Virus record (IMG/VR): IMGVR_UViG_3300034103_002265
DNA length: 64,000 bases
Reading direction: 5' to 3' (one strand)
Source of the DNA: a virus
Shown: positions 10,081 to 60,479 of the stretch, piece by piece
Layout: every line of letters begins with the position of its first letter
Position numbering within the stretch: position 1 is the stretch's first letter
Program-made: the position numbers and the translations under genes
Notes under the pieces: generated by a model
Databases searched by the model: none
Seen by the model: only the letters and a program-made list of their open reading frames with translations
What the model was told of the DNA's origin: nothing

Positions 10081-10476
10081 ATGAACGGAAAAATTACATT
10101 AATCACTCCCCCTGATATTTTTGAAAACGATTCAAGAAGTATTTTATTTTTGCATCTGTCCGATGAAGACCAAGAATCAGTCAGCAAATGGTTGGCACAG
10201 TCAGACATTACGGAAGATATTAATATATACTTTTACGATCATGATAAAGACCTCGATTGGTTGTTTCATGCCTTTGCTAACTGTGATTTCAAATTTATTG
10301 ATATTAGTAGATCTAAAATTGCAACCGGTGTGCTAGTAGGATATTTTTTAGGAAAGAAAAATACTTTCTATAAAATTGATAACGAAACTCAATCAGAAAT
10401 TTTTCAGTACATTAATCAAAATAGAATAACTAATATAAATTCCTTTTTAGAAAGAGCATTAAATGGCAAAAATTGA
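10081..10476 (+). CDS. Hypothetical protein
   Basis: 131 aa ORF. Confidence 0.4.
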   Translation: MNGKITLITPPDIFENDSRSILFLHLSDEDQESVSKWLAQSDITEDINIYFYDHDKDLDWLFHAFANCDFKFIDISRSKIATGVLVGYFLGKKNTFYKIDNETQSEIFQYINQNRITNINSFLERALNGKN

Positions 10477-11695
10477 TTCTAACCATGTTTGTTCATTTTG
10501 TAATAAGAGCAAAGAAGATGTTGAAAAATTGATAGTTGGTGAACAGGCTGCTATATGCAACGACTGTGTAGACCTTTGTGTTGATATTTTAAAGGACGAA
10601 AAAGTTAAAAGTTTACCAATTCAGAAAAAATTGTTAAATCCTGTAGATATTAAAGAATATCTTGATCAATATGTTATTGGCCAAGAAGAAGCAAAAATTG
10701 CCTTAAGCGTGGCAGTCAGTCAGCATTTTAAAAGAATTAATAATCCTAGCAAAGATATTGAACTAGAAAAAACCAACGTGCTGCTGTTAGGACCCACTGG
10801 TTGTGGTAAAACTATGATGGCAAGAAAGATTGCCGAATTCCTAGACTTACCGTTTGCTATCTGCGATGCTACTAGTATTACAGAAGCAGGCTATGTTGGC
10901 GACGATGTTGAAAGTATTTTAACTAGACTAATAAATGAAGCCGACGGCGATATAACAAAGGCCAGTCGTGGAATCGTTTACATAGATGAAATTGATAAAA
11001 TTTCTAAAAAAGGTGAAAATGTCAGCATCACTCGTGATGTAAGTGGTGAAGGTGTTCAGCAAGCATTGTTAAAAATGATAGAAGGTTCTGTATGCAGAGT
11101 TCCTTCATCGGGAAGGCGCAAGCATCCGGGATCTGAAGTTCAAGAAATCGATACAAGAGGAATTCTTTTTATCTGTGGCGGAGCATTTGTTGGTATTGAT
11201 GCTGTTGTTCGACAAAGAAAAGATGCAAAAAGTATTGGCTTTAGTGCTGAAATAAAAACTGATTCTGAAATTAACAACTACTACAGAGAAGTCAATACCA
11301 AGGATCTTATCAAGTATGGTTTGATCCCTGAATTTGTTGGTAGGTTTGGACTTCATATCAACGTTGATGAATTGTCAGTAAAAGAATTAGTTCGAGTATT
11401 GAAAGAACCAAGGAACAGTCTTATTAATCAGTACCAATATCTTTTTAAGTTAGATAAAATTGATCTGACATTTGATGATGAAAGTCTAGAAAGCATAGCG
11501 CAAAAAGCCAAAGAACTTAAAACCAATGCTCGTGGATTAAAAAATATTATAGAAAAGATATTGTTACCTTATCAATTTGATGCTATTAATCTTGTCGAAC
11601 GCGGATTAAATGCAATTAGGATAAGTAAAGACACAGTTGAGGGAAAGACTGCAATACTAATTTTTGATAAAAAGAAAAATGAACAAAACAAATAA
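10463..11695 (+). CDS. clpX: ATP-dependent protease ATPase subunit ClpX-like
   Basis: N-terminal C4 zinc finger (CSFCNK...CNDC), Walker A GPTGCGKT, Walker B IVYIDEIDK, ClpX-like length. Confidence 0.85.
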   Translation: MAKIDSNHVCSFCNKSKEDVEKLIVGEQAAICNDCVDLCVDILKDEKVKSLPIQKKLLNPVDIKEYLDQYVIGQEEAKIALSVAVSQHFKRINNPSKDIELEKTNVLLLGPTGCGKTMMARKIAEFLDLPFAICDATSITEAGYVGDDVESILTRLINEADGDITKASRGIVYIDEIDKISKKGENVSITRDVSGEGVQQALLKMIEGSVCRVPSSGRRKHPGSEVQEIDTRGILFICGGAFVGIDAVVRQRKDAKSIGFSAEIKTDSEINNYYREVNTKDLIKYGLIPEFVGRFGLHINVDELSVKELVRVLKEPRNSLINQYQYLFKLDKIDLTFDDESLESIAQKAKELKTNARGLKNIIEKILLPYQFDAINLVERGLNAIRISKDTVEGKTAILIFDKKKNEQNK

Positions 11696-22596: not shown

Positions 22597-22597
22597 T

Positions 22598-26844: not shown

Positions 26845-26862
26845 GTCTTTTTGAATGAAGTA

Positions 26863-26892
26863 AAGCCGGTTCTTGACAGGGCCGGCTTTTTA
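26863..26892 (+). terminator. Rho-independent terminator overlapping the next promoter
   Basis: agccgg-ttcttgacagg-gccggct followed by T5. Confidence 0.7.
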
Positions 26893-26901
26893 TTGTATAA
26901 T
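26873..26901 (+). promoter_or_regulatory. sigma70-like promoter
   Basis: TTGACA, 17 nt spacer, TATAAT, embedded in the terminator hairpin. Confidence 0.6.
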
Positions 26902-26937
26902 CTATACTGTACACAGACACTACTTGGAAGGTTTCAA

Positions 26938-29642: not shown

Positions 29643-30504
29643 TGTTTACAATCAAAACTGCATAGATGGAATGCAACAACATGTAAAAGACAATTCTATA
29701 GATTTGATTTTTACAGACCCACCGTACGGAATCGACGGTGATGAACTAGATGTTCATTATCATCGAGATGAATCAAATGTTGTTCCTGGATACGTTGATG
29801 TACCATTATCTCAATATGCAGAATTTAGTAAAAATTGGATTAAAGAATGTGAACGTGTTTTACGGCCGGGGGGTTCTATTTACATTGTAAGTGGATATAC
29901 TAATCTGCATCATGTGTTAAATGCACTTCATTCAACAGATCTTAAAGAAATCAATCATATTATTGCTCGATACAGTTTTGGTGTCAGCACTAAAAATAAA
30001 TTTGTCAGCAGTCATTATCATGTGTTGTTCTGGCAAAAACCAGACAAAGGAAAACAAAAAAGAACTTTTAACTCAAATTGGAAATACACTGATCAAAAAG
30101 ACAGTTATCACGATAGGTTATCTGTACAAGAAATGCCTCGAGATTACAAGCCTGGTCAAATCAAAAATAAAAACCAGTTGAGTGAAGATTTTATAATGAA
30201 ATTTATCATGTACAGCAGCAATCGAAGTGATACAGTTCTAGATTGTTTTGGTGGCGGAATGACCACTGGAAGAACTGCACTAAGATATGGTAGAAAGTTC
30301 ATAGGGTTTGAACTTAACAAAAATGCCTATGATGCTTTTGTTCCAACACTTGATACTGTGGAAGTTCTAACAGATCCAACTCCGGTAGAACCAGATGCAG
30401 TTGAATTGGCAAAAAGAGAAAAAATGAGAGAAGGGTGGAGGAAAGATAGGCTAAAAAGAAAACAGGAAAATAATTTTGACAAACTCGTAGTAAAAAATTC
30501 TTGA
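29620..30504 (+). CDS. DNA methyltransferase, beta-class amino-MTase (N6-adenine or N4-cytosine)
   Basis: Motif IV FTDPPYG near the N-terminus and motif I DCFGGGMTTG near the C-terminus. Confidence 0.8.
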   Translation: MLLGKQFNVYNQNCIDGMQQHVKDNSIDLIFTDPPYGIDGDELDVHYHRDESNVVPGYVDVPLSQYAEFSKNWIKECERVLRPGGSIYIVSGYTNLHHVLNALHSTDLKEINHIIARYSFGVSTKNKFVSSHYHVLFWQKPDKGKQKRTFNSNWKYTDQKDSYHDRLSVQEMPRDYKPGQIKNKNQLSEDFIMKFIMYSSNRSDTVLDCFGGGMTTGRTALRYGRKFIGFELNKNAYDAFVPTLDTVEVLTDPTPVEPDAVELAKREKMREGWRKDRLKRKQENNFDKLVVKNS

Positions 30505-30556
30505 CAATCGTTCTAATCTAAGTTAAATTATTAATCATCGCAACAAGGAGTATTTT

Positions 30557-31321
30557 ATGTCTTACCCGTTCGTTATCCAAGGTAATAATGTCACTGTGGT
30601 TATCGGTAATAAACCGCATACCATTTCCAAAACTCATATCACTTATCAAAAGGTAGTTGATGCCATTAAGGCAGGTGACTGGGATCAGGTCAAAGAAGTT
30701 ATTGATCCAAAAAAGGTTGTTCTAAACTATGGTCAAGGAAATGTTTCTGTACAAGGTGAGAAACTGTTCTGGAAGGGTGAAGAACTTAACGGTGCGTTGG
30801 CAGTTCGAATGATCACAATGCTACAAGAAGGTTTTGACGTTACTCCTTTTGTTCTGTTTATGGAAAACCTTATGCAGAACCCCAGCAAGCGAGCAGTTGA
30901 TGAACTGTATGGCTTCCTGGAAAAGAACAGTCTTCCTCTAACTCCGGATGGACACTTTCTTGCCTACAAGAAAGTTCGTGAAAACTTTTTTGATGTCCAT
31001 AGCGGTACTATGGATAACAGTCCGGGTAAAATTGTTGAAATGGAACGCAACAAGGTCGACGACAACAAAGACAATACTTGTTCCACAGGTCTGCACTTTT
31101 GTGGCATGAGTTATCTTAACCATTTTGGCGGTGCTCGAACTGTTATCGTTAAGGTCAATCCTCGCGATGTAGTTAGTATCCCCAGCGACTACAATGGAGC
31201 CAAGGGTCGTACCTGTAGGTACGAAGTTATCGGAGAACTTGGTGTTGATCCAGCGGCTGCGTTTGACAAGTCTGTTCAAGAAAATGCCAATGTTCATGAA
31301 AGTGAGCCTCACGGGTATTAA
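30557..31321 (+). CDS. Hypothetical protein
   Basis: 254 aa ORF with RBS aaggag. Confidence 0.45.
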   Translation: MSYPFVIQGNNVTVVIGNKPHTISKTHITYQKVVDAIKAGDWDQVKEVIDPKKVVLNYGQGNVSVQGEKLFWKGEELNGALAVRMITMLQEGFDVTPFVLFMENLMQNPSKRAVDELYGFLEKNSLPLTPDGHFLAYKKVRENFFDVHSGTMDNSPGKIVEMERNKVDDNKDNTCSTGLHFCGMSYLNHFGGARTVIVKVNPRDVVSIPSDYNGAKGRTCRYEVIGELGVDPAAAFDKSVQENANVHESEPHGY

Positions 31322-31323
31322 TC

Positions 31324-31503
31324 ATGATTAGAGTCATACTACTGTTTTTGGTACTAACGGCTCTAATTTGGGGCGGCATTCTTGGATTTCAAAAACTCTC
31401 AGGAAAGCAGGCCCTGAACTTGACAAAGGCTGCGGTATATGCTACAATTAGTTCGTCAGTTGCAGTTGCACTGATGTTTGGTCTGGTTCTTCTTTTTTAA
31501 GGA
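31324..31503 (+). CDS. Small membrane protein (not in the ORF track; below 60 aa)
   Basis: 59 aa: MIRVILLFLVLTALIWGGILGF...VALMFGLVLLF, with two predicted TM segments. Confidence 0.35.
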
Positions 31504-31510
31504 AACAAAA

Positions 31511-31612
31511 ATGACACATAGTCAGTTGACTGTTGAAGTGTTGGGTCGTGGTGTTTATTTCTTGATGGGCGCTGTTGTAGCAACCGTCGCAATCTTTACT
31601 TTCGTTATCTAA
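31511..31612 (+). CDS. Small membrane protein (33 aa)
   Basis: MTHSQLTVEVLGRGVYFLMGAVVATVAIFTFVI. Confidence 0.3.
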   Translation: MTHSQLTVEVLGRGVYFLMGAVVATVAIFTFVI

Positions 31613-31622
31613 GGAAAATCAA

Positions 31623-32423
31623 ATGAAGCGTATTTTTACTTTTGTTGTCCTCGCCGCTGCTGTTCTTGCCACAGGTTGCACTCGCATTGAAACCGGCGAA
31701 GTCGGTGTTCGAGTCGGTTTTGACAAGCAGGTTAAACCTGGAGAACTGCTACCTGGTTCGTTCAATCAGGTACTGATTGGTGATGTTCTTACGTTCCCCG
31801 TTAAGGACGTCAATGTAACAATGGAGAATATGACTCCTGTTGCCAAAGACAATAGCACCATGAAAGATTTGGATGCTGTGGTCGTGTATAACATCAATCC
31901 TAGTCAGGTCAGTGAACTCTACGCTACTAAGAACCGTGCGTTTCATGCTACTGATAAGAGCGGTGATGTATTCCTGATGTACAACTATGTGGTGCAGAAT
32001 GCACGTAATGCTATCTACAAGGCAGCACGTAAGTATGAAGCACTGGATATGGCAGACAACCGTAGTGATATGGAAAACTTCATCAAGGATGAGATTGTTC
32101 GCAACCTTGCTGAAGAAAAGTTGGACGGCAGTATCACTATCAGTCAGGTACTGATTCGTAATGTGGTTCCCGCTGATAGTGTTGTTGCAAGTGCAAATGA
32201 CCTGGTTCGTGCTAAGAATGAACTCAAGCAGAAAGAGGTTGAGGTCAAGACTGCCGAAGCAGAATCCCGTCGGATGGCAGCACTGGCTAACAACTCAGCA
32301 CAGAGTGTCCAATTCATGCAGGCTCAGGCTATGCTGAATATTTCGGAAGGCATTAAGAACGGTAAGGTTCAAACTATCGTTGTTCCTAGTAACTTTACTG
32401 CATTGATGACTCCTCAGCGTTAA
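31623..32423 (+). CDS. SPFH/band-7 (prohibitin-like) domain lipoprotein
   Basis: Lipobox LATGC. Overall SPFH-like pattern with a C-terminal coiled coil. Confidence 0.5.
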   Translation: MKRIFTFVVLAAAVLATGCTRIETGEVGVRVGFDKQVKPGELLPGSFNQVLIGDVLTFPVKDVNVTMENMTPVAKDNSTMKDLDAVVVYNINPSQVSELYATKNRAFHATDKSGDVFLMYNYVVQNARNAIYKAARKYEALDMADNRSDMENFIKDEIVRNLAEEKLDGSITISQVLIRNVVPADSVVASANDLVRAKNELKQKEVEVKTAEAESRRMAALANNSAQSVQFMQAQAMLNISEGIKNGKVQTIVVPSNFTALMTPQR

Positions 32424-32440
32424 TTGAATAAAAACAAGAA

Positions 32441-32470
32441 AAGGGCCTTGACGGCCCTTTTCTTTTTTGC
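32441..32470 (+). terminator. Rho-independent terminator
   Basis: aagggcc-ttgac-ggccctt followed by a T-run. Confidence 0.8.
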
Positions 32471-32653
32471 TACAATAATATTATGATTGCTGCTCGCAAG
32501 ACGTGGATTCCCGGAGGGCACGAAGGTAGTCAGAGGCTTAGCAGCGGCGCCCTTAAACTACTTAACGCAGGCATTCAAAATGTCATCGACGCAGAACATG
32601 AAGAATGGTTATCCGAAAACGAAGATGACGATGTAGAGTACATCGACGAATAA

Positions 32654-33070
32654 TTATTTCAGCCAACCCAGTTTTTCACCAGCGACCTTTCTACGGTCGC
32701 TTTCTTCTTTACTGCCTGGATATCTGCTGGCCCATAATAGTACCACTGCAAAAAATATCCCCATACCTAAAGTTGCTCTCCAATTTTGTGTTGCTAGATA
32801 GAAAGTTACCAAACTCACATCCATTACAAAAAACATAAACCATTTTACTTTTGTAGGGTACACTCGACCGTCCCGCCAATTTTTGATAAACGGTCCAAAT
32901 ACTTTATGATTCAACATATAGTTATGAAACCTTTCAGAGCTTTTGGCAAAACAATAGGCTGCAATTAAACTAGGTGTGCTCCATGGTATTCCAGGAACAA
33001 CAATTCCGATATATGCAATTCCTAAAAATAAGAAACCTGCTCCCATCCATAGATATTTTTTAATGTTCAT
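32654..33070 (-). CDS. YbaN/DUF454 family inner-membrane protein
   Basis: GIVVPGIP motif and two TM hairpins. Confidence 0.55.
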   Translation of the reverse strand: MNIKKYLWMGAGFLFLGIAYIGIVVPGIPWSTPSLIAAYCFAKSSERFHNYMLNHKVFGPFIKNWRDGRVYPTKVKWFMFFVMDVSLVTFYLATQNWRATLGMGIFFAVVLLWASRYPGSKEESDRRKVAGEKLGWLK

Positions 33071-34260
33071 AATATTTCCTTTAAACTTCTTGTCAAATAA
33101 TCGATGTCTGCTTCTGTATGATTAGGAGTAGGAGTTGCTCGTAGTCGCTCAGTTCCCCAAGGCACAGTTGGATAATTTATAGGCTGAAGATAAATTCCCT
33201 TTTCATCTAATAACCAATCACTGACTAGTTTACACTTCTTAGCATCCTTGATCATTATTGGTACAATATGACTGTCATTGACTAACACATCAATTCCATG
33301 CTGTAACAGATGCTCTCTGGTATCTTGTGCAATTCTAAAAATTTTACTTCGTAGTTCTGCATGGTCTTGTACATACTTTACGCTGGCTAATGCTCCTGCA
33401 CACAACACTGGGCTCATGCTGGTACTAAAAATAAATCCTTGAGCATAACTTCTTACCATATCTACTAAATCTCTTGTACCGGCAACATAGCCTCCTTGTA
33501 CTCCAAAAGCCTTGGCTAGAGTGCCTTGTATGACGTCAACGCCGTCTATGCAATGTTGTTCTTCGCTGACTCCTGCGCCTCTTGTTCCGTATAATCCAAC
33601 CGCATGAACTTCATCAACATAAACCATAGCACCATGTAGTCTTGCAATTTCGCAGACATCGGAAATTTTTCCTTTATCTCCGTCCATACTGTATACACCT
33701 TCTAAAACTATTATAGGTTGGATATTTTCATTGAACGTTAGTAATATTTCTTTTAAATGATCTAGATCATTATGTTTCCATACAGTTACAGGGCATCCGG
33801 ATGACTTCATTCCAACAATCATAGAATTATGATTTTCGCTATCACTAATATAATGTACGTTTGGAATCATTTTTCCTAGCACAGTTAAGGTTGCTTGATT
33901 TGCTACATAGCCGCTGGTAAAAAGCAAAGCACTGGTTTTATCGTGTAGTTTAGCCAGTTCATGTTCCAATGCTACATGATAATGAGTAGTTCCCGAAATG
34001 TTTCTAGTACCACCACTTCCTGCTCCGGCTGTCTCTAATGCTGTATGCATAGCATCTATAACTATCTTATGCTGACCCATACCTAAATAATCGTTTGAAC
34101 ACCAATTGGTAATTTTTTTAATATTGTATTTTCCGTACCATATGGCTGTTGGAAAACTCCCTCGTTGACGAAGGATATCAGTAAATACTCGATAATTGCC
34201 TTCAGTTTTAAGTTTTTCCAAACTTTGAGAGATTGCATCTTGTGTTTTTGGTTTGATCAT
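33067..34260 (-). CDS. hemA: 5-aminolevulinate synthase (ALAS; alpha-oxoamine synthase family)
   Basis: GAGSGGTRNISGTTHYHVALEHELAKLH...DEVHAVGLYGTRGAG closely parallels the ALAS core. Start at MIKPK, 14 codons inside ORF 33067..34302. Confidence 0.8.
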   Translation of the reverse strand: MIKPKTQDAISQSLEKLKTEGNYRVFTDILRQRGSFPTAIWYGKYNIKKITNWCSNDYLGMGQHKIVIDAMHTALETAGAGSGGTRNISGTTHYHVALEHELAKLHDKTSALLFTSGYVANQATLTVLGKMIPNVHYISDSENHNSMIVGMKSSGCPVTVWKHNDLDHLKEILLTFNENIQPIIVLEGVYSMDGDKGKISDVCEIARLHGAMVYVDEVHAVGLYGTRGAGVSEEQHCIDGVDVIQGTLAKAFGVQGGYVAGTRDLVDMVRSYAQGFIFSTSMSPVLCAGALASVKYVQDHAELRSKIFRIAQDTREHLLQHGIDVLVNDSHIVPIMIKDAKKCKLVSDWLLDEKGIYLQPINYPTVPWGTERLRATPTPNHTEADIDYLTRSLKEIL

Positions 34261-34308
34261 AATATAGGTATTTATTGACACGCAGACAAAAAGAAAGTAC
34301 AATTACAT

Positions 34309-34569
34309 ATGAAGATAAAAAAATTAGATCGCCGAATGAAAGGATTCGGCGATTTTAAATACAAAATAACATATCGAAAAAAAACTGAAAGAACTAAATT
34401 TATAGATGCTCGAAATTGGTGTTGGACACAGTGGAATTCAAGTTCAGAATATGAACTTTGGGATACAAGTGTTAATCAACACTGGTCTTGGGTAATTGAT
34501 GAATGGGAAACAAAGATACTGCTAGCATCTGACAAAGAAGCCCAGTGGTTTACACTCAAATGGGGATAA
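34309..34569 (+). CDS. Hypothetical protein
   Basis: 86 aa ORF. Confidence 0.4.
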   Translation: MKIKKLDRRMKGFGDFKYKITYRKKTERTKFIDARNWCWTQWNSSSEYELWDTSVNQHWSWVIDEWETKILLASDKEAQWFTLKWG

Positions 34570-34571
34570 AA

Positions 34572-35420
34572 ATGAAAATTAAAATTGTATCAGATCTGCA
34601 TCTAGAATTCAGTGACATCAACATCAAAAATGATGAGGATGCTGATCTCTTGATTTTATCCGGGGACATCATGATTGCTCACGATCTTTATGAGCATCCG
34701 GAAACCAGTTATGGCATGTACAGCAATGTTAACCTTGCTGACCTCGGCCGTAGGCAACAAACTGCTCTACGTTTTAGAGATTTTCTAAAGCGGGTCAGTT
34801 TCCAATTTCCTCATGTTATCTACGTAGCAGGTAATCATGAATTCTACCATTTCAGGTGGAATCAAACGTTAGAGGTTCTTCGAAATGAATGTGCAAAGCA
34901 CCCTAACATCTATTTTTTAGAAAATGATGTTAAGGTGATCGATGATGTTACGTTTGTCGGCGGAACACTTTGGACCAACATGAACAAAGGAGATCCAATA
35001 ACTCTACATGCTGCTAGAGATATGATGAATGATTTTCGGTTGATCAGAAAGGAAGACCTAGGATTTACTAGAGTTAAACCGATTGATACTTCAGTTCGGC
35101 ATAAAAAAACTTTAGACTATGTCAAACTAATAGTCGAATTAGATCCGACTAAAAAGTATGTTGTAGTTGGACACCACAGTCCAAGTTTTTTGAGTTGCCA
35201 TGAAATGTACAAAAATGATTATCTTATGAATGGCTGCTATCACAGCGATCTCAGCGAATTCATTTTAGATCATCCACAGATCAAATTATGGACTCATGGA
35301 CATACTCATCATCCTTTTGATTATGTAATCGGTGAAACTCGTGTAATTTGTAATCCTCGTGGTTACGAAGGATACGAGCCTGACAACGGTTGGGATGTGA
35401 ACAAAATTGTTGAGGTGTGA
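34572..35420 (+). CDS. Metallophosphoesterase (calcineurin-like)
   Basis: DLH, GDIM, GNHEF and GHTHH motifs. Start at MKIKIVSDLH. Confidence 0.7.
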   Translation: MKIKIVSDLHLEFSDINIKNDEDADLLILSGDIMIAHDLYEHPETSYGMYSNVNLADLGRRQQTALRFRDFLKRVSFQFPHVIYVAGNHEFYHFRWNQTLEVLRNECAKHPNIYFLENDVKVIDDVTFVGGTLWTNMNKGDPITLHAARDMMNDFRLIRKEDLGFTRVKPIDTSVRHKKTLDYVKLIVELDPTKKYVVVGHHSPSFLSCHEMYKNDYLMNGCYHSDLSEFILDHPQIKLWTHGHTHHPFDYVIGETRVICNPRGYEGYEPDNGWDVNKIVEV

Positions 35421-35649
35421 AGGAATAGAAATGATTAATTTAGAAGCAGCAAAAATAACAGCTAAAATTGTTGGAAAAACAATTGGCGTTATAGGTTCCT
35501 ATATTTTACTTTTTTATGTGCTGTTTAGCATATTTGACTTTTACGGGATCCTTGCTGGGCTTGTTATAATTGCACTGTCTTTATCTGTTAAAGTAATTTA
35601 CGAAACAGAAAAATCAAAAATTGAGTTTAAAAATCGAATTAAAAATTGA
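35407..35649 (+). CDS. Small membrane protein
   Basis: 80 aa with one or two TM segments. Confidence 0.4.
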   Translation: MLRCEGIEMINLEAAKITAKIVGKTIGVIGSYILLFYVLFSIFDFYGILAGLVIIALSLSVKVIYETEKSKIEFKNRIKN

Positions 35650-35753
35650 CAACTTCAACAGATTCTTGTATAAATATATTTGTAGGACGCCGATAGGGTC
35701 CTACAAATGGGCAAGGTGCCCAAATTGATTCTTGCTTAAAAAGGAGAAAAACT

Positions 35754-36176
35754 ATGAATCAACTCGCACGTTTCGATACATCTGCTCTAAACAGAGCACT
35801 TATTGGATTCGACAGAATTTTTAATGATTTTGAAAATCGCTTCCAACATTCCACAACAAACTACCCACCTTACAACATAATCAAAACAGACGAGAATACG
35901 TTTGAAATTGAAGTTGCCGTTGCAGGGTTTGACCGAGAAGATATCGTCATCGAAATCGATCAAGATCAATTACGTGTTAGAGGTCAGCGCAAGCAAACAG
36001 AAGATGTAAAAGAATACCTACATCGCGGACTTGCTGCTAGAGATTTCGAGCGCACATTTACTCTTGCAGAGCATATTATTGTGGGTGAAGCAGAATTGAC
36101 CAACGGTATCCTTCGTGTTAAACTAACAAGAGAAGTTCCAGAATCACTGAAACCAAGGTTAATTTCTATTAAGTAA
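35754..36176 (+). CDS. Small heat-shock protein (Hsp20 / alpha-crystallin)
   Basis: ACD-like core ...FEIEVAVAGF...GILRVKL; RBS aaaggag. Confidence 0.85.
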   Translation: MNQLARFDTSALNRALIGFDRIFNDFENRFQHSTTNYPPYNIIKTDENTFEIEVAVAGFDREDIVIEIDQDQLRVRGQRKQTEDVKEYLHRGLAARDFERTFTLAEHIIVGEAELTNGILRVKLTREVPESLKPRLISIK

Positions 36177-36182
36177 AGTAAA

Positions 36183-36207
36183 TACGGGGAGTAATCCCCG
36201 TATTTTA
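36183..36207 (+). terminator. Rho-independent terminator
   Basis: atacgggga-gtaa-tccccgtat followed by a T-run. Confidence 0.8.
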
Positions 36208-36219
36208 AAGGATCAGACA

Positions 36220-36537
36220 ATGGCTACCGAACATATTATTGAACAAGAATCTAAGGTAATTAGAAAAAATTCCGAAAAAATTAAAGAACCAGAAAAATTT
36301 AAAGTTATCGTGTGCAACGATGATGTTACTCCTATAGAGTTTGTTGTTTCAATGCTGATTGCAATATTTAGATATAATCAAAAATCTGCACTAGATCTAA
36401 CTATGCAAATTCATCACAAAGGTAGTGCTATAGCAGGAATTTTTCGCTATGAAATTGCAGAGCAAAAAGCCATAGACGCAACCAATCTTTCTAGATCACA
36501 TGGCTGGCCTTTGATAATTAAGATAGAACAAGAATGA
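36220..36537 (+). CDS. clpS: Clp protease adaptor ClpS
   Basis: FKVIVCNDDVTPIEFVVSML...QIHHKGSAIAGIF is colinear with E. coli ClpS ([20 protein letters not shown]...AVHYQGKAICGVF). Confidence 0.85.
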   Translation: MATEHIIEQESKVIRKNSEKIKEPEKFKVIVCNDDVTPIEFVVSMLIAIFRYNQKSALDLTMQIHHKGSAIAGIFRYEIAEQKAIDATNLSRSHGWPLIIKIEQE

Positions 36538-36545
36538 GGAAATAA

Positions 36546-37091
36546 ATGGTACTAAAGGACTTGACAGCAGAAAAACATAAAGAAGCCGAGTCTACACCAT
36601 TCATGAAGGCAGTGTTTAAAAAGACACTGCCTTCGTCATTATGGGCAGACTGGACTTATCAAAAATCATTATTTTATCATGCGATAGAAGGTTCTGCAGG
36701 ATCCTGCGGGCTTTTAAATGATTTACCAGATATTCGCAGAGCATTTTATTTGTATGAAGATTTTCAGGAATTATCAAATGGAAAATTCTCAGTAGAATAT
36801 CGAAAACCTGTATTAGATTATTACTCATACATTATGAGCATTTCTAAGGAACCAAAACGTATTATGGCTCACCTTTATGTATGGCACATGGGAGATATGT
36901 TTGGCGGACAAATGATCAAAAAAATAGTACCTGGGCCACACAGAAATTTAGAATTTAAAGATATTCAAGTACTAATGACTAATATTAGAGCAAAACTAGA
37001 CGACTCGATGGCCGAAGAAGCCAACTGTGCCTTTGATTGGGCAATTAAAATGATGAGAGATTATGACAGTAATTTGGAACAACATAATTAA
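36546..37091 (+). CDS. Heme oxygenase
   Basis: N-terminal LKDLTAEKHKEAESTPFMK, and LYVWHMGDMFGGQMIKK resembling the HO motif YTRYLGDLSGGQVL. Confidence 0.75.
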   Translation: MVLKDLTAEKHKEAESTPFMKAVFKKTLPSSLWADWTYQKSLFYHAIEGSAGSCGLLNDLPDIRRAFYLYEDFQELSNGKFSVEYRKPVLDYYSYIMSISKEPKRIMAHLYVWHMGDMFGGQMIKKIVPGPHRNLEFKDIQVLMTNIRAKLDDSMAEEANCAFDWAIKMMRDYDSNLEQHN

Positions 37092-37743
37092 TTTAGCAGA
37101 AACATTAAAAGAAAAATTCTCTGCAACGGGCAATTGCTACTCAAGCGAAAAAGATAACGGATGGGATAACTATCTTTATTCTAGTAGTTTATATAGAAGA
37201 GCACATATAGAGATTGTTGATTTTAGGGAAACTCATAAAATCTACATTTTACACAGTACAATATTCCCACATTATAACGATTCTAGTCCAATATGGGGAT
37301 TTGATGCTGTGTGTGGTCCAAATAAAATAACTGGTGCTTTTCATGATTTTAGTAACGGTGGAGAAAATACTCATTTTATGATGAAATGGTTTGCGGAAGA
37401 AACTATGCATTACGGTTGGCGAAAACCTAGAGATTTACCGCCCTGGGCAAAGGCTATTTTTAGCCCAAGCATGATTGCTGCCGGTAATATACAAGAAGGC
37501 GAAGAACTTGACGATCTTTGTAAAATTGCTAATAAAAGTGTCGATTACTATTTGAGTAATGTAGGCACGACCCAAAATTGGCCCAATGACTTTCACATGG
37601 TTCAAAATAGGTATTGTCATTATCAAAAGCAAAATCCCCATGTAGTTAATAGTATGATGGCTATGGGAATACCGGAAGAAAAAATAAAAAAATTCGTAGA
37701 CGAAGTTTTGTTCCCAGAAACAAAAGAACTAAGTTATGCATAA
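37063..37743 (+). CDS. Ferredoxin-dependent bilin reductase (PcyA/PebS/PcyX family)
   Basis: Family-typical regions ...ILHSTIFPHY... and ...FDAVCGPNKITGAFHDFS... Overlaps the end of the heme oxygenase gene by 29 nt. Confidence 0.7.
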   Translation: MTVIWNNIINLAETLKEKFSATGNCYSSEKDNGWDNYLYSSSLYRRAHIEIVDFRETHKIYILHSTIFPHYNDSSPIWGFDAVCGPNKITGAFHDFSNGGENTHFMMKWFAEETMHYGWRKPRDLPPWAKAIFSPSMIAAGNIQEGEELDDLCKIANKSVDYYLSNVGTTQNWPNDFHMVQNRYCHYQKQNPHVVNSMMAMGIPEEKIKKFVDEVLFPETKELSYA

Positions 37744-37774
37744 ATATTAAACTGTTAAAAACTAGGGCATAATA

Positions 37775-38866
37775 ATGCGAGCAAAAGAATTTCTTCACGA
37801 AGTAGACGCCAATGTTGCAAAAGTTCAATCGAATATTGTAGATAAAGTTAACACTATCTTCGATATAGATGAATTAAATCAAATTTATTCGTATGTCCGT
37901 AAAATTGATTTAGGAACTGGTTTTGAGCCTATTTTTAGCAAAGATGAAGATTTAAAACAAATTCAGGGTGTACTCAGCAGATCTATCATTGATGCAAAAG
38001 CCACTTTTGAAGAAAAACTAGAATTTGCTAAAGAAATGGCAACCACTGGAATTATTGATATAAACCAGTTGTTAACTCCGGGTGTTAAACAAAATTTGCA
38101 AAGTGTTGTTAAAACTAACTTTCCCAATATATTCAAGCAAATTGCTTCCGATATCTTAAACATTTCTGGTTCTTTTTTATCGGGAACTAAAAAAACAAAT
38201 AGAGGCAAGGGAGAATTTTTCCTAGCCATTGCTAGCCCTTTTATTTCGATGGCCAAAGGAGCCGGTGATCTTGATATCAATACTGGCAAGAATTCAATGG
38301 CAATAGAAGTAAAAGCAGATTTAGGAAGATTAAAAGGAAGAAAAGGTTACGGAACAACCGACACCGCATATAGAGAGATAAAATCAAATAGCAAACTTTT
38401 TCTAAAAAACAACATAAAAGAACCAGAAGGACAGGTAAACAAGCAGCATCCAGATTTTATTGTTACTTTAGGAGCCAAATCTAATTTTTGGTCTCAGTTT
38501 GGTCCCTATTGTATTCAACATGGTGTTGATCCGGGACTGGTTTCCTCTTTTATTAAAAGTCAACTAGAAATTGTAGTACGATCGTTATATATTAATTTAG
38601 ATCGAGAATCAATGGATAGTATGCTTACATCAGTTGATGAAACAACTGGAGTAGTTGATTTTAAAGCATTATCGCCTGCTGTAAAAGTAGCAGCATTTAC
38701 TTATTATCAACAGTCAGACGGATTTGACGGTTTGTTGTTAATTAACGGTGATTCATTAAATTTTATGTACATTCCAGATGCTACAACTTTCCAGCAGTCT
38801 GCTAGATATGCTAGATTAGGTTTTGAAGTTGGACAACAAAACGGAATGCAAGTTACAATTTCTTGA
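37775..38866 (+). CDS. Hypothetical protein
   Basis: 363 aa ORF. Confidence 0.45.
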   Translation: MRAKEFLHEVDANVAKVQSNIVDKVNTIFDIDELNQIYSYVRKIDLGTGFEPIFSKDEDLKQIQGVLSRSIIDAKATFEEKLEFAKEMATTGIIDINQLLTPGVKQNLQSVVKTNFPNIFKQIASDILNISGSFLSGTKKTNRGKGEFFLAIASPFISMAKGAGDLDINTGKNSMAIEVKADLGRLKGRKGYGTTDTAYREIKSNSKLFLKNNIKEPEGQVNKQHPDFIVTLGAKSNFWSQFGPYCIQHGVDPGLVSSFIKSQLEIVVRSLYINLDRESMDSMLTSVDETTGVVDFKALSPAVKVAAFTYYQQSDGFDGLLLINGDSLNFMYIPDATTFQQSARYARLGFEVGQQNGMQVTIS

Positions 38867-38878
38867 TTAAATACGTTT

Positions 38879-39250
38879 ATGGAAATCCTTGCTCTTTTTA
38901 CATTATTGCAAATAAAGCACTACTATGCTGATTTTGTAATACAAACATATGAACAAACCGTTCGTAAGGGTATCTATAGAGATTGGGTAGGGATCAGTCA
39001 CAGCCTAGATCATTTATCGGCCACACTTTTTATCTTAATAATTTTTAATTTTTTTGTTCCTCTTTCGGTACTAGCAATTTTAAGCATCGCATTGTTTGAG
39101 TTCGTCTGCCATTATCACATTGATTGGTTCAAGGTTCATTATGGATGCAAAGATATGACCAGAGGCCTATTCTGGAACCAATTTGGATTAGATCAACTAG
39201 CACATCAATTGACATATATTTTAATGGCTTGGTATTTACTACTGTTATAA
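38879..39250 (+). CDS. Hypothetical membrane protein
   Basis: 123 aa, hydrophobic. Confidence 0.4.
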   Translation: MEILALFTLLQIKHYYADFVIQTYEQTVRKGIYRDWVGISHSLDHLSATLFILIIFNFFVPLSVLAILSIALFEFVCHYHIDWFKVHYGCKDMTRGLFWNQFGLDQLAHQLTYILMAWYLLLL

Positions 39251-39292
39251 TTTCATACAACTGCTCCTTAAATATTAAGTATAGGAGCCACT

Positions 39293-39751
39293 ATGAAATA
39301 TATTATTGTAACACTATGTATAGTCTCGAGCATGTCACATGCAGCCGAGATAGTTCATCAATTTAATAGTCCCAGTTTTTCTGGTATCGGTTTCTCCAGT
39401 CATGCATTGACAATTTACACACAGGAATTAAGTCGTAAATTATCATTGAACGCTGAAAAGAAAGCCGAACTGCTTAAAGCAGAACAAGACGCAAAAAACA
39501 CTACAATGGCTAAATTTATCTCGAATTTAGAATCGAGAGTATATAATGAATTGGCCAGACAAATTACTGAAAAACTTTTTGAAGGTACAGGAACACAGGC
39601 AACTGGAAAGTTTGCATTTAATGGTGGAAATATCGAATACAAAAAGTTAGGCAGCATTTTAGAAATTACCATTACCGACGAAAACGGTAATATTACAACT
39701 ATGACCGTACCAATTGGTGATTTTGGTTGGTTGGCACCAACAGGAGGATAA
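39293..39751 (+). CDS. csgF: Curli assembly component CsgF-like
   Basis: Signal peptide, then VHQFNSPSFSG (E. coli CsgF: TFQFRNPNFGG). Confidence 0.55.
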   Translation: MKYIIVTLCIVSSMSHAAEIVHQFNSPSFSGIGFSSHALTIYTQELSRKLSLNAEKKAELLKAEQDAKNTTMAKFISNLESRVYNELARQITEKLFEGTGTQATGKFAFNGGNIEYKKLGSILEITITDENGNITTMTVPIGDFGWLAPTGG

Positions 39752-39752
39752 T

Positions 39753-40550
39753 ATGAAAAAATTATTGTTATTAACTTCGGTGCTATTAATTACTACAGGA
39801 TGTGCATCTTTGAATTACACTGTTCAAGGATATGACGAACCTGTAGTTACAAAACCATTTGTAAAATCTGAAGAAGGATTAAAAGGGCCAGCAAATGGCC
39901 AAATACCAGTAGCAGTTTACAACTTTAGAGATATGACCGGTCAACGAAAAGCCAGCCAAACAATTGCTAGTTTAAGTTCGGCAGTTACACAAGGCGCAGA
40001 TGCTTACCTTGTTAAAAGCCTACAAGAAATTGGCGGTGGCAAATGGTTTAAAGTATTAGAACGAGGAGGTTTAGATAATCTTATTAAAGAAAGACAGTTA
40101 ATAAGACAAATGAGAGAACTATATCAAGGAAAGGATGCACAACCACTACCCCCAATGTTATTTGCTGGTATGATTCTAGAAGGAGGAATCATAGGTTATG
40201 ACAGCAATTTGTTGAGCGGAGGAACAGGCGCACGAATTCTTGGAATCGGAGCAACAACTGAATATCGTCAAGATGAAGTTACTATCAGTCTTAGAGCGGT
40301 GAGTGTAGCAACTGGTGAAGTTTTAGTTGCTATTAATACAACAAAGACTGTTATAAGTTTCCAAGATAAGGCCGGAATTTTACGTTTCTATGATGCCGGC
40401 ACTAGGGCATTAGAATTAGAAACAGGAAATGCAACAAATGAATCAATGAATAAAGCGGTACAACTTGCAATACACGAAGCGGTTGTCGCAATGATTCATA
40501 AAGGTGCAGAGAATGGCCATTGGGGCTTTAAAACAGAAGAGAAAAAATGA
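39753..40550 (+). CDS. csgG: Curli secretion channel CsgG family lipoprotein
   Basis: Lipobox ITTGC and CsgG-like body (VAVYNFRDMTGQ...GGLDNLIKERQL...GYDSNLLSGG). Start at MKKLLLL after RBS aggagg. Confidence 0.8.
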   Translation: MKKLLLLTSVLLITTGCASLNYTVQGYDEPVVTKPFVKSEEGLKGPANGQIPVAVYNFRDMTGQRKASQTIASLSSAVTQGADAYLVKSLQEIGGGKWFKVLERGGLDNLIKERQLIRQMRELYQGKDAQPLPPMLFAGMILEGGIIGYDSNLLSGGTGARILGIGATTEYRQDEVTISLRAVSVATGEVLVAINTTKTVISFQDKAGILRFYDAGTRALELETGNATNESMNKAVQLAIHEAVVAMIHKGAENGHWGFKTEEKK

Positions 40551-40718
40551 GTTGGTTTAGACGAACACCTCACTACAAGGAAGAACCAAAACATTTACCT
40601 CATAAAAAAAGAAGCCCGATGGCAGAAGAAATTATTCGACAGATAGAAGAAATTCGGTCAACATCGAATAAAAATCCTATTAATAATGATAAGGATAGAA
40701 AAAAGGAGCGAACCTAAA

Positions 40719-60309: not shown

Positions 60310-60316
60310 GATATTT

Positions 60317-60391: not shown

Positions 60392-60397
60392 AACAAT

Positions 60398-60473: not shown

Positions 60474-60479
60474 AACATA

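What the first reader, a model, noticed from the sequence alone, without database searches (positions are those of the whole stretch)
33067..37743. Complete ALA-to-bilin route: ALAS, heme oxygenase and ferredoxin-dependent bilin reductase, flanked by Hsp20 and ClpS
33067..34260 (minus strand) matches 5-aminolevulinate synthase over its catalytic core. ALAS is the alphaproteobacterial/eukaryotic C4 route and is unusual in a phage.
Downstream on the plus strand, heme oxygenase (36546..37091) overlaps a PcyA/PebS/PcyX-family bilin reductase (37063..37743) by 29 nt, behind Hsp20 and ClpS.
The phage therefore carries both the entry step of tetrapyrrole synthesis and the heme-to-bilin exit steps. 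Together with ClpX/ClpS this implies reprogramming of host heme and proteolysis.
Basis: partly seen in the sequence, partly recalled or inferred. Interest (0 to 1): 0.7.

Follow-up and report, generated by a model that had tools for sequence, protein, structure and literature searches.

The report
Phage ALA synthase plus bilin genes
A large freshwater phage carries the first enzyme of haem synthesis together with the two enzymes that turn haem into a bilin pigment; the genes are real and look functional, but this gene set was already reported in phages in 2020 and tested biochemically in 2024.

Summary
33067-34260(-) is a 5-aminolevulinate synthase: it passes the TIGR01821 cutoff, fails the BioF and KBL cutoffs, and keeps the PLP lysine and substrate residues. 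36546-37091(+) is a short heme oxygenase. It overlaps by 29 nt a ferredoxin-dependent bilin reductase at 37063-37743(+), whose closest solved structure is PcyX. Hsp20 and ClpS lie directly upstream.

The phage encodes the entry step and the two exit steps only. None of the seven ALA-to-haem enzymes and no ferredoxin was found in the window.

[quoted passage not shown] 2024, annotated earlier by Chen et al. 2020. This is a new member of a known kind.

Observations not found in the literature searched:
- Hsp20-ClpS-HO-FDBR is a fixed-spacing block in 47 of 76 related viral loci.
- A DUF454 membrane-protein gene accompanies valaS.
- This reductase has the PcyA-type Glu/Ile pair, not the PcyX Asp/Met pair, so phycocyanobilin is the more likely product.
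- Relatives without valaS nearby carry a small protein resembling the GluTR dimerisation domain; the two never co-occur.

A betaproteobacterial-type tmRNA hints at a C5-pathway host.

The parts
33067..34260 (-). valaS: viral 5-aminolevulinate synthase (397 aa), Shemin-pathway entry enzyme
   Evidence: TIGR01821 scores 544.7 bits against a cutoff of 338.55; bioF and KBL are below their cutoffs. PDB ALAS 7x98 and 2bwn score 423 and 409 bits. The Schiff-base Lys250 is conserved, as are PLP residues H144/D216/H219/T247, glycine residues N56/S191/R374 and succinyl-CoA residues R24/T85/N87/I88/S139. The haem ligand His342 is replaced by Lys, and the protein ends before Cys400. The N-terminal 112 aa are 89% identical to GROS21-1_SAMEA9560623 vAlaS and 79% to the biochemically tested CB_2 vAlaS.
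32654..33070 (-). DUF454/YbaN-like small membrane protein; its start overlaps the valaS stop by 4 nt (ATGA), suggesting translational coupling
   Evidence: PF04304 scores 99.1 bits. A homologue lies within the fetched locus in 58 of 80 IMG/VR valaS loci, 36 of them directly downstream on the same strand. It is absent within 5 kb of alaS in three bacterial genomes (L094, L095, L097).
32436..32464 (.). Bidirectional terminator-like hairpin (12-bp stem) closing the minus-strand valaS-DUF454 unit and the plus-strand Band_7 gene
   Evidence: This is a consensus scan only, not evidence of function.
34309..34569 (+). Hypothetical 86-aa protein, divergent from valaS across a 48-nt gap
   Evidence: No Pfam or NCBIfam match. 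The gene is called in identical contigs. A TTGACA-17-TACAAT match lies at 34275-34303.
34545..35420 (+). Calcineurin-like metallophosphoesterase
   Evidence: PF00149 scores 40 bits. Homologues lie upstream of the block in many related loci.
35431..35649 (+). Small hydrophobic 72-aa protein, at the position where relatives carry the GluTR-dimerisation-domain mini-protein
   Evidence: Called gene in L082-L087. No family match. No homology to the GlutR_dimer minis.
35754..36176 (+). Hsp20 (IbpA/IbpB-like small heat-shock protein), first gene of the conserved four-gene block
   Evidence: PF00011 scores 64.9 bits. IbpA scores 133 bits and IbpB 129 bits, both below their equivalog cutoffs. Fixed position about 1.3 kb upstream of the FDBR start in related loci.
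36220..36537 (+). ClpS, N-degron adaptor of ClpAP
   Evidence: PF02617 scores 85.1 bits. Against E. coli ClpS structures E = 9e-17. Pocket residues N33/D34/D35/T37/H65 match E. coli N34/D35/D36/T38/H66; Met40 is Ile39 here.
36546..37091 (+). vHemO: short heme oxygenase (181 aa)
   Evidence: PF01126 scores 57.7 bits. PDB HO 5kzl gives E = 3.7e-9. His11 aligns with the proximal His20 of HmuO, and the distal G-D-x-x-G-G motif is kept (HMGDMFGGQ). It is 47% identical to GROS823 vHemO and 27% to the experimentally active 175-aa CB_2 vHemO.
37063..37743 (+). Ferredoxin-dependent bilin reductase of the PcyA/PcyX lineage; overlaps vHemO by 29 nt
   Evidence: PF05996 scores 52.5 bits. PcyX 5owg gives E = 1.3e-47 against PcyA at 2.5e-7, with no PebS match. 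Catalytic His64/Asp81 correspond to PcyX His69/Asp86. Glu50 and Ile62 are the PcyA states (Glu76/Ile86), not the PcyX states Asp55/Met67.
10463..11695 (+). ClpX-like unfoldase; context gene, 21 kb from valaS
   Evidence: zf-C4_ClpX scores 53.7 bits, AAA_2 104.6 bits, plus ClpB_D2-small. Homologues lie 4-10 kb upstream of the FDBR in several relatives.

Best explanation
This is an auxiliary-metabolic-gene island of a large freshwater phage with T4-type rIIA/rIIB genes. It is one more example of the published 'broken cassette' of viral tetrapyrrole genes: hemO and pcyA/X adjacent, valaS nearby.

Proposed mechanism:
[quoted passage not shown] It lacks both haem-ligand residues used for feedback inactivation, so it should run unregulated.
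2. The host's own HemB-HemH enzymes turn that ALA into haem.
3. vHemO opens haem to biliverdin IXalpha, releasing iron and CO.
4. The translationally coupled reductase uses host ferredoxin to reduce biliverdin by four electrons to a phycobilin.

Together the genes push precursor into the host tetrapyrrole pathway and pull haem out of it.

Shown: gene identities, conserved catalytic residues, gene order and its conservation.

Inferred:
- Enzyme activity, by homology to tested relatives.
- The product. I favour phycocyanobilin because of the PcyA-type Glu50/Ile62 pair.
- The benefit to the phage, which is unknown here as it is in the literature.
For: Enzyme identities and catalytic residues.

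Phage origin:
- rIIA and rIIB.
- A 26-tRNA array and a tmRNA.
- Relatives on IMG/VR contigs of up to 322 kb.
- The same locus on 14 contigs in the searched collection; the six shown come from six different samples.

Published precedent:
- Wegner et al. 2024 (PMC11480375) define three-gene and broken cassettes.
- They show that CB_2 vAlaS rescues an E. coli ALA auxotroph, that the K250A mutant does not, and that CB_2 vHemO is active.
- They show that the CB_2 FDBR makes PCB, and that many vAlaS lack His342/Cys400.
- Chen et al. 2020 list ho1, pcyX-like and ALAS in large freshwater phages.

Closeness to tested proteins: the window vAlaS N-terminus is 79% identical to the tested CB_2 enzyme and has the same Lys250.

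Product:
- Glu50/Ile62 hold in 118 and 120 of the 120 closest homologues.
- The two positions covary as E+I/V or D+M across 96 distinct FDBR sequences (viral loci plus reference proteins).
- The only tested Glu-type viral enzyme (CB_2) makes PCB. Wegner et al. attribute this to the absence of the PcyX-specific Asp55.
Against: - No activity was measured for these proteins.
- The reductase is far closer overall to PcyX, which makes PEB (41% identity, E = 1e-47), than to CB_2 PcyA (29%) or cyanobacterial PcyA (23%). Two residues may not set regiospecificity.
- The NJ tree has no support values.
[quoted passage not shown] That does not favour a tight push-pull coupling.
- Most phages with this type of reductase have no valaS within 10 kb (2 of 24 do), so valaS is not needed for the HO/FDBR function.
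- NCBIfam has no model that the HO reaches.
Confidence: 0.85

Rival explanations
1. The reductase is a canonical PcyX that makes phycoerythrobilin (pink pigment), as shown for the marine PcyX enzymes, not phycocyanobilin.
For: The best solved-structure match by a wide margin is PcyX 5owg: 165.6 bits against 33.7 for PcyA. It is 41% identical to PcyX and Mosig. Wegner et al. placed the metagenomic viral sequences, including the nearest published relative GROS21-1_SAMEA9560623, within PcyX in their tree.
Against: The residue Wegner et al. call PcyX-specific (Asp55) is Glu here, and in 118 of the 120 closest homologues. The paired Met67 position is Ile, as in PcyA. In the NJ tree the window sits in a Glu-type clade that is sister to the Asp/Met clade holding 5owg and Mosig, not inside it.
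Confidence: 0.35
2. The island is a control module for the rate-limiting step of haem synthesis in a host that uses the C5 (GluTR) pathway. ClpS, Hsp20 and, in relatives, a stand-alone GluTR dimerisation domain act on host GluTR or its regulators. valaS is an alternative way to achieve the same de-regulated ALA supply. HO and FDBR remove the haem that would otherwise feed back.
For: - The Hsp20-ClpS-HO-FDBR block has fixed spacing in 25 of 29 Glu/Ile-type and 18 of 37 Asp/Met-type loci.
- A 64-100 aa protein passes the Pfam GlutR_dimer threshold (36.4, 32.0 and 27.5 bits against 22.9). It sits upstream of Hsp20 in 18 of 24 Glu/Ile loci.
- It never co-occurs with valaS: 15 loci have valaS only, 22 have the mini only, none has both.
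- The window carries a betaproteobacterial-type tmRNA (RF01850, 118.8 bits). From general knowledge, Betaproteobacteria use the C5 pathway.
- Also from general knowledge, not tested here: Salmonella GluTR is degraded by Lon and ClpAP in response to haem; plant ClpS1 selects GluTR; FLU binds the GluTR dimerisation domain.
Against: - The evidence is all gene order.
- Hsp20 is a core gene of related cyanophage-like phages and may sit here by descent.
- A profile of the mini-proteins reaches the Arabidopsis GluTR dimerisation domain 4yvq as top PDB hit, but only at E = 0.41.
- The exclusivity is judged within 10 kb only, and the loci are phylogenetically related.
- The window itself has no GlutR_dimer gene.
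- The host is unknown.
Confidence: 0.2
3. The purpose is iron recovery. HO releases Fe from host haem for phage iron enzymes, the reductase only clears biliverdin to keep HO turning over, and the bilin is a by-product.
For: Wegner et al. cite iron supply as a discussed role, and note that many source environments are nutrient-poor. HO and FDBR are always adjacent (75 of 78 loci with enough flank).
Against: Adding an ALA synthase makes more haem, which consumes iron rather than releasing it. Some relatives carry a ferrochelatase next to HO/FDBR, which also inserts iron. The active-site residues of the reductase are conserved within each class, which suggests that the product matters.
Confidence: 0.15
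4. The aminotransferase is a KBL, BioF or serine palmitoyltransferase paralogue rather than an ALA synthase.
For: It belongs to the same alpha-oxoamine synthase superfamily. All matches in deposited phage genomes are under 37% identity and, where annotated, are BioF or KBL.
Against: Only the ALAS model is passed; every other model is far below its cutoff. ALAS structures score about twice as high as KBL/BioF. The ALAS-specific substrate residues are conserved. A 79%-identical relative (over the N-terminal 112 aa) is an experimentally proven ALAS.
Confidence: 0.02

Closest known systems
Viral tetrapyrrole 'broken cassette' (hemO + pcyA/X adjacent, valaS nearby) of Wegner et al. 2024, Nat Commun 15:8783; nearest listed example GROS21-1_SAMEA9560623 (Grosse Fuchskuhle), tested example phage CB_2 (Crystal Bog)
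   Same: The same three genes on a large freshwater viral contig, with HO and FDBR adjacent and valaS a few kb away. vAlaS has Lys250 and lacks the haem ligands. The N-terminal 112 aa are 89% (GROS623) and 79% (CB_2) identical.
   Different: This contig is not in their Supplementary Data 1, and its sequences are not in their supplements. HO and FDBR are much more diverged from CB_2 (27% and 29%). Their main text does not mention DUF454, ClpS or Hsp20 next to these genes; their figures could not be read.
PcyX (PDB 5OWG, PcyX_EBK42635; Ledermann et al. 2016 and 2018), biliverdin to phycoerythrobilin
   Same: Best structural-sequence match (E = 1.3e-47). The His/Asp catalytic pair is conserved. 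The gene follows and overlaps a short hemO.
   Different: Glu50 replaces Asp55 and Ile62 replaces Met67. The window falls in a sister clade. The product is untested.
PcyA (Synechocystis, PDB 2D1E) and the viral PcyA of phage CB_2, biliverdin to phycocyanobilin
   Same: The Glu76/His88/Asp105-equivalent triad and the Ile86 equivalent are all present.
   Different: Only 23% (Synechocystis) and 29% (CB_2) identity. NCBIfam PcyA PRK02816 scores 70.5 bits against a cutoff of 206.
Pelagibacter phage Mosig EXVC030M (MT647606): ferrochelatase, heme oxygenase and FDBR
   Same: The closest match among 50,697 deposited phage genomes (FDBR 41%). HO and FDBR overlap, in a T4-like myovirus.
   Different: Mosig has no valaS, Hsp20 or ClpS next to the pair. 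It has a ferrochelatase and an Asp/Met-type PcyX.
Bradyrhizobium sp. ORS278 hemO-pcyA-alaS island with bphP (Jaubert et al. 2007, as cited by Wegner et al.)
   Same: The same three enzymatic functions clustered together.
   Different: It is cellular and linked to a phytochrome that uses the PCB. No phytochrome or other bilin-binding protein was recognised in the window.

Membership tests
5-aminolevulinate synthase (EC 2.3.1.37; TIGR01821) | Scores above the curated equivalog cutoff, and above sister alpha-oxoamine synthases | tested here: met
   544.7 bits against a cutoff of 338.55. bioF 318.3 (cutoff 426.45), KBL 306.3 (cutoff 460), and the serine palmitoyltransferase models 198-241 bits (cutoffs 500-670). 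PDB ALAS 423 and 409 bits against about 200 for the others.
5-aminolevulinate synthase (EC 2.3.1.37; TIGR01821) | PLP Schiff-base lysine and PLP, glycine and succinyl-CoA contact residues (R. capsulatus numbering) | tested here: met
   K248 maps to K250, H142 to H144, D214 to D216, H217 to H219, T245 to T247, N54 to N56, S189 to S191, R374 to R374, R21 to R24, and T83/N85/I86/S137 are conserved. K156 is Val; Wegner et al. also report deviations at 143, 156 and 158.
5-aminolevulinate synthase (EC 2.3.1.37; TIGR01821) | [quoted passage not shown] | not testable with these tools
   Shown for CB_2 vAlaS, which is 79% identical over the first 112 residues.
Heme oxygenase (PF01126, HO-1/HmuO type) | Passes the family profile threshold | tested here: met
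   57.7 bits against a cutoff of 23, covering residues 3-129. No NCBIfam model is matched. PDB HO 5kzl gives E = 3.7e-9.
Heme oxygenase (PF01126, HO-1/HmuO type) | Proximal haem-ligand His and distal-helix Gly-rich motif | tested here: met
   His11 aligns with HmuO His20. HMGDMFGGQ aligns with YLGDLSGGQ.
Ferredoxin-dependent bilin reductase (PF05996) | Passes the family profile threshold, with the central His/Asp catalytic pair | tested here: met
   52.5 bits against a cutoff of 31. His64 and Asp81 are invariant in the A1 alignment of 19 relatives and in the 120 closest homologues.
PcyX sensu stricto (biliverdin to PEB) | PcyX-specific catalytic Asp55, as named by Wegner et al. 2024 | tested here: not met
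   Glu50 occupies this position. 118 of the 120 closest homologues have Glu; PcyX 5owg and Mosig have Asp. It is therefore not filed as PcyX, only as PcyA/PcyX lineage.
PcyX sensu stricto (biliverdin to PEB) | Product is phycoerythrobilin via 15,16-DHBV | not testable with these tools
   Needs an anaerobic FDBR assay with HPLC.
PcyA (phycocyanobilin:ferredoxin oxidoreductase) | Passes the curated PcyA equivalog model | tested here: not met
   PRK02816 scores 70.5 bits against a cutoff of 206.
PcyA (phycocyanobilin:ferredoxin oxidoreductase) | Glu76/His88/Asp105 catalytic residues (roles recalled from the PcyA literature) | tested here: met
   Glu50, His64 and Asp81 align to them, and Ile62 aligns to Ile86.
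ClpS (PF02617) | Profile threshold and N-degron pocket residues (E. coli N34, D35, D36, T38, H66; roles recalled from the literature) | tested here: met
   85.1 bits against a cutoff of 23. N33, D34, D35, T37 and H65 are conserved; Met40 is Ile39. The NCBIfam equivalog cutoffs are not reached (84 bits against 143-149).
Viral valaS / hemO / pcyA-X 'broken cassette' (Wegner et al. 2024) | hemO and FDBR adjacent, with valaS nearby on a viral contig | tested here: met
   valaS lies 2.3 kb from hemO. Viral context comes from rIIA/rIIB, the tRNA array and the IMG/VR relatives.

The most novel reading that the evidence does not exclude
The three enzymes are part of a larger conserved phage module: DUF454, then either valaS or a stand-alone GluTR dimerisation domain, then Hsp20, ClpS, HO and FDBR. 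Its job would be to take over control of ALA synthesis, the regulated step of the tetrapyrrole pathway, in hosts that use the C5 route. valaS and the GluTR-domain mini-protein would be interchangeable solutions: a bypass versus a decoy or poison of host GluTR. ClpS would redirect ClpAP toward or away from GluTR. The Glu/Ile-type reductases would be a separate functional class that makes phycocyanobilin, distinct from PcyX.
Probability: 0.2. Interest if true: 0.7.

Novelty: new member of a known kind. Interest (0 to 1): 0.33.

Why it matters
In itself it adds one more well-preserved freshwater example to a published class of phage metabolic genes. It confirms that the class extends to phages that probably infect hosts which do not themselves use ALA synthase.

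The neighbourhood is more useful:
- A fixed Hsp20-ClpS-HO-FDBR block.
- A DUF454 partner of valaS.
- The valaS versus GluTR-domain alternation.
- The Glu/Ile versus Asp/Met split of the reductases.

These give concrete, cheap experiments on a question the literature leaves open: why phages of non-photosynthetic bacteria make bilins at all.

Tried and rejected
- Megablast of 30000-42000 against 50,697 phage genomes found nothing.
- tblastn of vAlaS against the same set found matches under 37% identity only. Where annotated they are BioF or KBL, and several sit in records that look like bacterial DNA or contamination.
- I looked for this contig or its proteins in the supplements of Wegner et al. 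and did not find them.
- I tried to read Ledermann et al. 2018 for the role of Asp55. The paper is not held, and a literature search for PcyX residue roles returned only Wegner et al..
- A literature search for a DUF454/YbaN function found nothing useful.
- A single-sequence PDB search with a GlutR_dimer mini-protein returned only spurious summed hits to designed repeat proteins. The profile search put GluTR 4yvq on top, but at a non-significant E = 0.41.
- Rfam found no riboswitch or other regulatory RNA near valaS or the HO/FDBR genes.
- A motif scan found no plant-type or 4Fe-4S ferredoxin in the window.
- The radical-SAM protein at 7559-8866 was considered as a HemN/BchE-type tetrapyrrole enzyme. 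It matches only the generic Radical_SAM domain, at threshold (29.7 against 29.5), with no HemN_C or B12-binding domain. It was left unassigned.
- The promoter scan gave many matches (41 against 27 expected) and was not used for more than the divergent-gap site.

Full report

Yes. ORF listing and profile searches confirm every gene at the stated coordinates.

The 397-aa product of 33067-34260 (minus strand) scores 544.7 bits on the ALAS equivalog model TIGR01821, against a cutoff of 338.55. It fails every sister model:
- bioF: 318.3 bits, cutoff 426.45.
- KBL: 306.3 bits, cutoff 460.
- Serine palmitoyltransferase models: 198-241 bits, cutoffs 500-670.

The best solved structures are bacterial ALAS 7x98 and 2bwn, at 423 and 409 bits. 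KBL, BioF and SPT score about 200 bits or less.

I mapped the protein onto Rhodobacter capsulatus ALAS:
- Schiff-base lysine: K248 maps to K250.
- PLP contacts: H144, D216, H219, T247.
- Glycine contacts: N56, S191, R374.
- Succinyl-CoA contacts: R24, T85, N87, I88, S139.
- Only K156 differs (Val). Wegner et al. also report deviations at 143, 156 and 158 in viral enzymes.
- The two residues used for haem-dependent inactivation are missing. His342 is Lys, and the protein ends at residue 397, before Cys400.

The ATG at 34260 is the correct start. The N-terminus aligns from residue 1 with published viral ALAS sequences.

The heme oxygenase (36546-37091, 181 aa) passes PF01126 at 57.7 bits, against a cutoff of 23. 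His11 aligns with the proximal His20 of HmuO. The distal GDxxGG motif is kept. It is short, but the experimentally active CB_2 phage enzyme has only 175 residues.

The bilin reductase (37063-37743, 226 aa) passes PF05996 at 52.5 bits, against a cutoff of 31. Its best solved structure is PcyX 5owg at E = 1.3e-47, against 2.5e-7 for PcyA, with no PebS match. The two genes overlap by 29 nt.

- Hsp20: 35754-36176, IbpA/B-like.
- ClpS: 36220-36537, with N-degron pocket residues N33, D34, D35, T37 and H65 conserved against E. coli ClpS.
- ClpX: 10463-11695, with the zinc finger, AAA_2 and D2-small domains.

**2. What is the surrounding sequence?**

It is a phage.
- The window holds rIIA (26851-29091) and rIIB (30557-31321).
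- It holds many PHROG families.
- It holds an array of 26 tRNAs at 60.2-64 kb, a CUA-anticodon tRNA and a tmRNA.
- Relatives of both valaS and the reductase lie on IMG/VR viral contigs of up to 322 kb.
- The identical vAlaS protein, with the same gene order, is on 14 contigs in the searched collection. The six shown come from JGI, ENA, NCBI and Logan assemblies of six different samples. The locus is therefore not an assembly artefact.

valaS and a DUF454/YbaN-like membrane-protein gene (32654-33070) form a two-gene minus-strand unit.
- Their stop and start overlap by 4 nt.
- The unit sits in an otherwise plus-strand region, and the GC skew flips there.
- It ends at a bidirectional terminator-like hairpin at 32436-32464.

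Hsp20, ClpS, HO and FDBR run co-directionally, with gaps of 43 and 8 nt and then the 29-nt overlap.

I found no other haem-pathway enzyme among the ORFs scanned and no ferredoxin motif. The title 'complete ALA-to-bilin route' is therefore wrong. The phage supplies step 1 and the last two steps. The seven steps from ALA to protoheme, and the reductant, must come from the host or from elsewhere in the phage genome.

**3. Is it known?**

Yes.
- Chen et al. 2020 listed ho1, pcyX-like and ALAS genes in large freshwater phages related to cyanophages.
- Wegner et al. 2024 (PMC11480375) named the gene valaS. [quoted passage not shown]
- They showed that CB_2 vAlaS rescues an E. coli ALA auxotroph, and that K250A does not.
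- They showed that CB_2 vHemO makes biliverdin and that the CB_2 reductase is a true PcyA making phycocyanobilin.
- They noted that many vAlaS lack His342 and Cys400.

The window's vAlaS N-terminus (112 aa) is 89% identical to their GROS21-1_SAMEA9560623 sequence and 79% to CB_2.

This contig is not in their contig table, and its sequences are not in their supplements. It is a new member of a known kind.

On the claim 'unusual in a phage':
- It holds for deposited genomes. Among 50,697 records no match exceeds 37% identity; the annotated ones are BioF or KBL. The nearest reductase is in Pelagibacter phage Mosig, at 41%.
- It does not hold for metagenomes. At least 247 IMG/VR contigs carry a vAlaS relative, and at least 527 carry a relative of the reductase.

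**4. What the neighbourhood adds**

I compared 83 non-redundant viral loci that were fetched using the reductase alone.

(a) A conserved four-gene block.
- Hsp20-ClpS-HO-FDBR recurs with nearly fixed spacing. The starts lie about 1300, 820 and 517 nt upstream of the FDBR start.
- The block persists from 100% down to 41% reductase identity.
- Among loci with at least 1.5 kb of upstream flank, it occurs in 25 of 29 loci of the window's reductase type, 18 of 37 of the PcyX type, 0 of 6 of a third type and all 4 loci with other residues: 47 of 76 in all.
- In the papers I could search, nothing describes this. Figures could not be read.

(b) DUF454 travels with valaS.
- It is present in 58 of 80 valaS-defined viral loci. 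In 36 of them it lies directly downstream on the same strand.
- It is absent within 5 kb of alaS in three bacterial genomes: Kordiimonas, Oceanomicrobium and a Pelagibacteraceae MAG.
- It also occurs in this neighbourhood without valaS, so it belongs to the island rather than to valaS alone.
- Its function is unknown.

(c) The reductases fall into residue classes.
- The position Wegner et al. call the PcyX-specific catalytic Asp55 is Glu50 in the window. It is Glu in 118 of its 120 closest homologues.
- Ile62 corresponds to PcyA Ile86 and PcyX Met67. It is Ile in all 120.
- Across 96 distinct reductase sequences (viral loci plus reference proteins) the two positions covary: Glu with Ile or Val, Asp with Met.
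- Cyanobacterial PcyA is Glu/Ile. CB_2, which makes PCB, is Glu/Val. PcyX 5owg and Mosig are Asp/Met.
- In a neighbour-joining tree rooted on PcyA, CB_2 branches first. A Glu-type clade that includes the window is then sister to the Asp/Met clade holding PcyX. The tree has no support values.
- I therefore do not file the protein as PcyX. I predict phycocyanobilin as the product, with moderate confidence. Overall similarity still favours PcyX, and that rival gets 0.35.

(d) A possible alternative to valaS.
- In 18 of 24 Glu/Ile loci with at least 9 kb of upstream flank, a 64-100 aa gene lies upstream of Hsp20.
- Its product passes the Pfam threshold for the GluTR dimerisation domain: 36.4, 32.0 and 27.5 bits, against a cutoff of 22.9.
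- A profile of 21 such proteins has the Arabidopsis GluTR dimerisation domain (4yvq) as its top PDB hit, but at a non-significant E = 0.41.
- Across all loci examined, 15 have valaS only, 22 have this mini-protein only, and none has both.
- The window has valaS and no such gene.
- This is gene order within 10 kb among related phages. It is a lead, not a result.

(e) A hint about the host.
- The window's tmRNA matches the betaproteobacterial model RF01850 at 118.8 bits, against a gathering score of 84. From general knowledge, Betaproteobacteria make ALA by the C5 (GluTR) route.
- Together with the GluTR-derived gene in relatives, this suggests a non-alphaproteobacterial host. That is the scenario in which Wegner et al. 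propose that vAlaS bypasses the tRNA-Glu-dependent pathway.
- The phage also carries two tRNA-Glu genes.

**5. Mechanism**

Best supported (0.85 for identity and biochemistry):
- An unregulated vAlaS pushes ALA into the host pathway.
- vHemO and the coupled reductase pull haem out as biliverdin and then a phycobilin, using host ferredoxin.

The benefit to the phage is unknown, as it is in the literature. One published observation argues against a tight push-pull coupling. Co-expressing a phage HO and FDBR did not lower the porphyrin build-up caused by vAlaS in E. coli.

Rivals and extensions:
- A canonical PEB-forming PcyX: 0.35, on the product only.
- A control module acting on host GluTR through ClpS, Hsp20 and the GluTR-domain protein: 0.2.
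- Iron recovery: 0.15. This is hard to reconcile with adding a haem-making enzyme, and with the ferrochelatase found in some relatives.
- A KBL or BioF enzyme: 0.02.

**6. Verdict**

- Novelty: new member of a known kind.
- Interest is modest for the finding as written. The conserved block, the DUF454 partner, the residue classes and the valaS versus GluTR-domain alternation are the parts worth following up.

Noticed in passing
L099:8366-8587, L100:2520-2714, L101:8297-8599 and about 20 further related loci (not in the window): A 64-100 aa stand-alone protein passes the Pfam GlutR_dimer threshold (glutamyl-tRNA reductase dimerisation domain). It is encoded upstream of Hsp20-ClpS-HO-FDBR. It never co-occurs with valaS within 10 kb: 22 loci have the mini only, 15 have valaS only, none has both. 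It could be a decoy or poison for host GluTR.
   Followed up: partly
window 32654-33070 (-): A DUF454/YbaN-like membrane-protein gene is translationally coupled to valaS by a 4-nt overlap. The pairing recurs in 58 of 80 viral valaS loci but not next to alaS in three bacterial genomes. The main text of the 2024 paper does not mention it.
   Followed up: partly
window 6189-6492 (+): A phage-encoded tmRNA matches the betaproteobacterial model (RF01850, 118.8 bits), with tag peptide ANDEVFAMAA. Together with ClpX and ClpS this gives the phage a three-part proteolysis-targeting kit. It also hints at a betaproteobacterial host.
   Followed up: partly
window 4938-5012 (+): A tRNA with anticodon CUA (called tRNA-Pyl by ARAGORN; Rfam tRNA at 53.6 bits). 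It is a possible amber-suppressor tRNA.
   Followed up: no
window 60235-63970 (+): A dense array of 26 tRNA genes, including two tRNA-Glu(UUC). It accounts for the GC rise at the end of the window. Rfam also calls an unusually long tRNA match at 62405-62525, possibly one with an intron or insert.
   Followed up: no
window 39293-44385 (+): A curli-type secretion set in a phage: CsgF, CsgG, a curlin-repeat protein, a FecR-domain protein and a PA14/GLEYA protein with curlin repeats. CsgG lies 2-6 kb downstream of the FDBR in many related loci.
   Followed up: partly
window 13568-14176 and 15192-15710 (+): An AhpC/TSA peroxiredoxin and a CMD (AhpD-like) protein. They may be relevant to the oxidative or photodynamic stress expected from ALA-driven porphyrin build-up.
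   Followed up: no
window 44798-45811 and 46651-48702 (+): A PstS-like phosphate-binding protein and a CHASE2 sensor fused to an adenylate/guanylate cyclase. The same pair occurs downstream of the island in L101.
   Followed up: no
window 18793-19821, 22586-23059, 23134-24531 (+): NAD-salvage and nucleoside genes: an NMN adenylyltransferase/Nudix fusion, a nucleoside 2-deoxyribosyltransferase-like protein and nicotinamide phosphoribosyltransferase.
   Followed up: no
window 7559-8866 (+): A 435-aa radical-SAM protein that matches only the generic domain, at threshold. It may correspond to what Chen et al. list as 'bchE' in related phages. It could not be assigned to tetrapyrrole metabolism.
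   Followed up: partly
L136, L137, L147, L172, L175, L111; L001 (Mosig): Ferrochelatase homologues lie next to HO/FDBR, mainly in loci whose reductase is of the Glu/Val type. These loci lack the Hsp20-ClpS block. The viral tetrapyrrole toolkit looks modular.
   Followed up: partly
L099:13866-15059 (-): A 397-aa gene with a RuBisCO_large Pfam hit lies on a 263-kb viral contig, 3 kb from the HO/FDBR pair.
   Followed up: no
window 36180-36205: A perfect 11-bp-stem hairpin fills the 43-nt gap between Hsp20 and ClpS. It may be an attenuator or an mRNA-stability element inside the operon.
   Followed up: no
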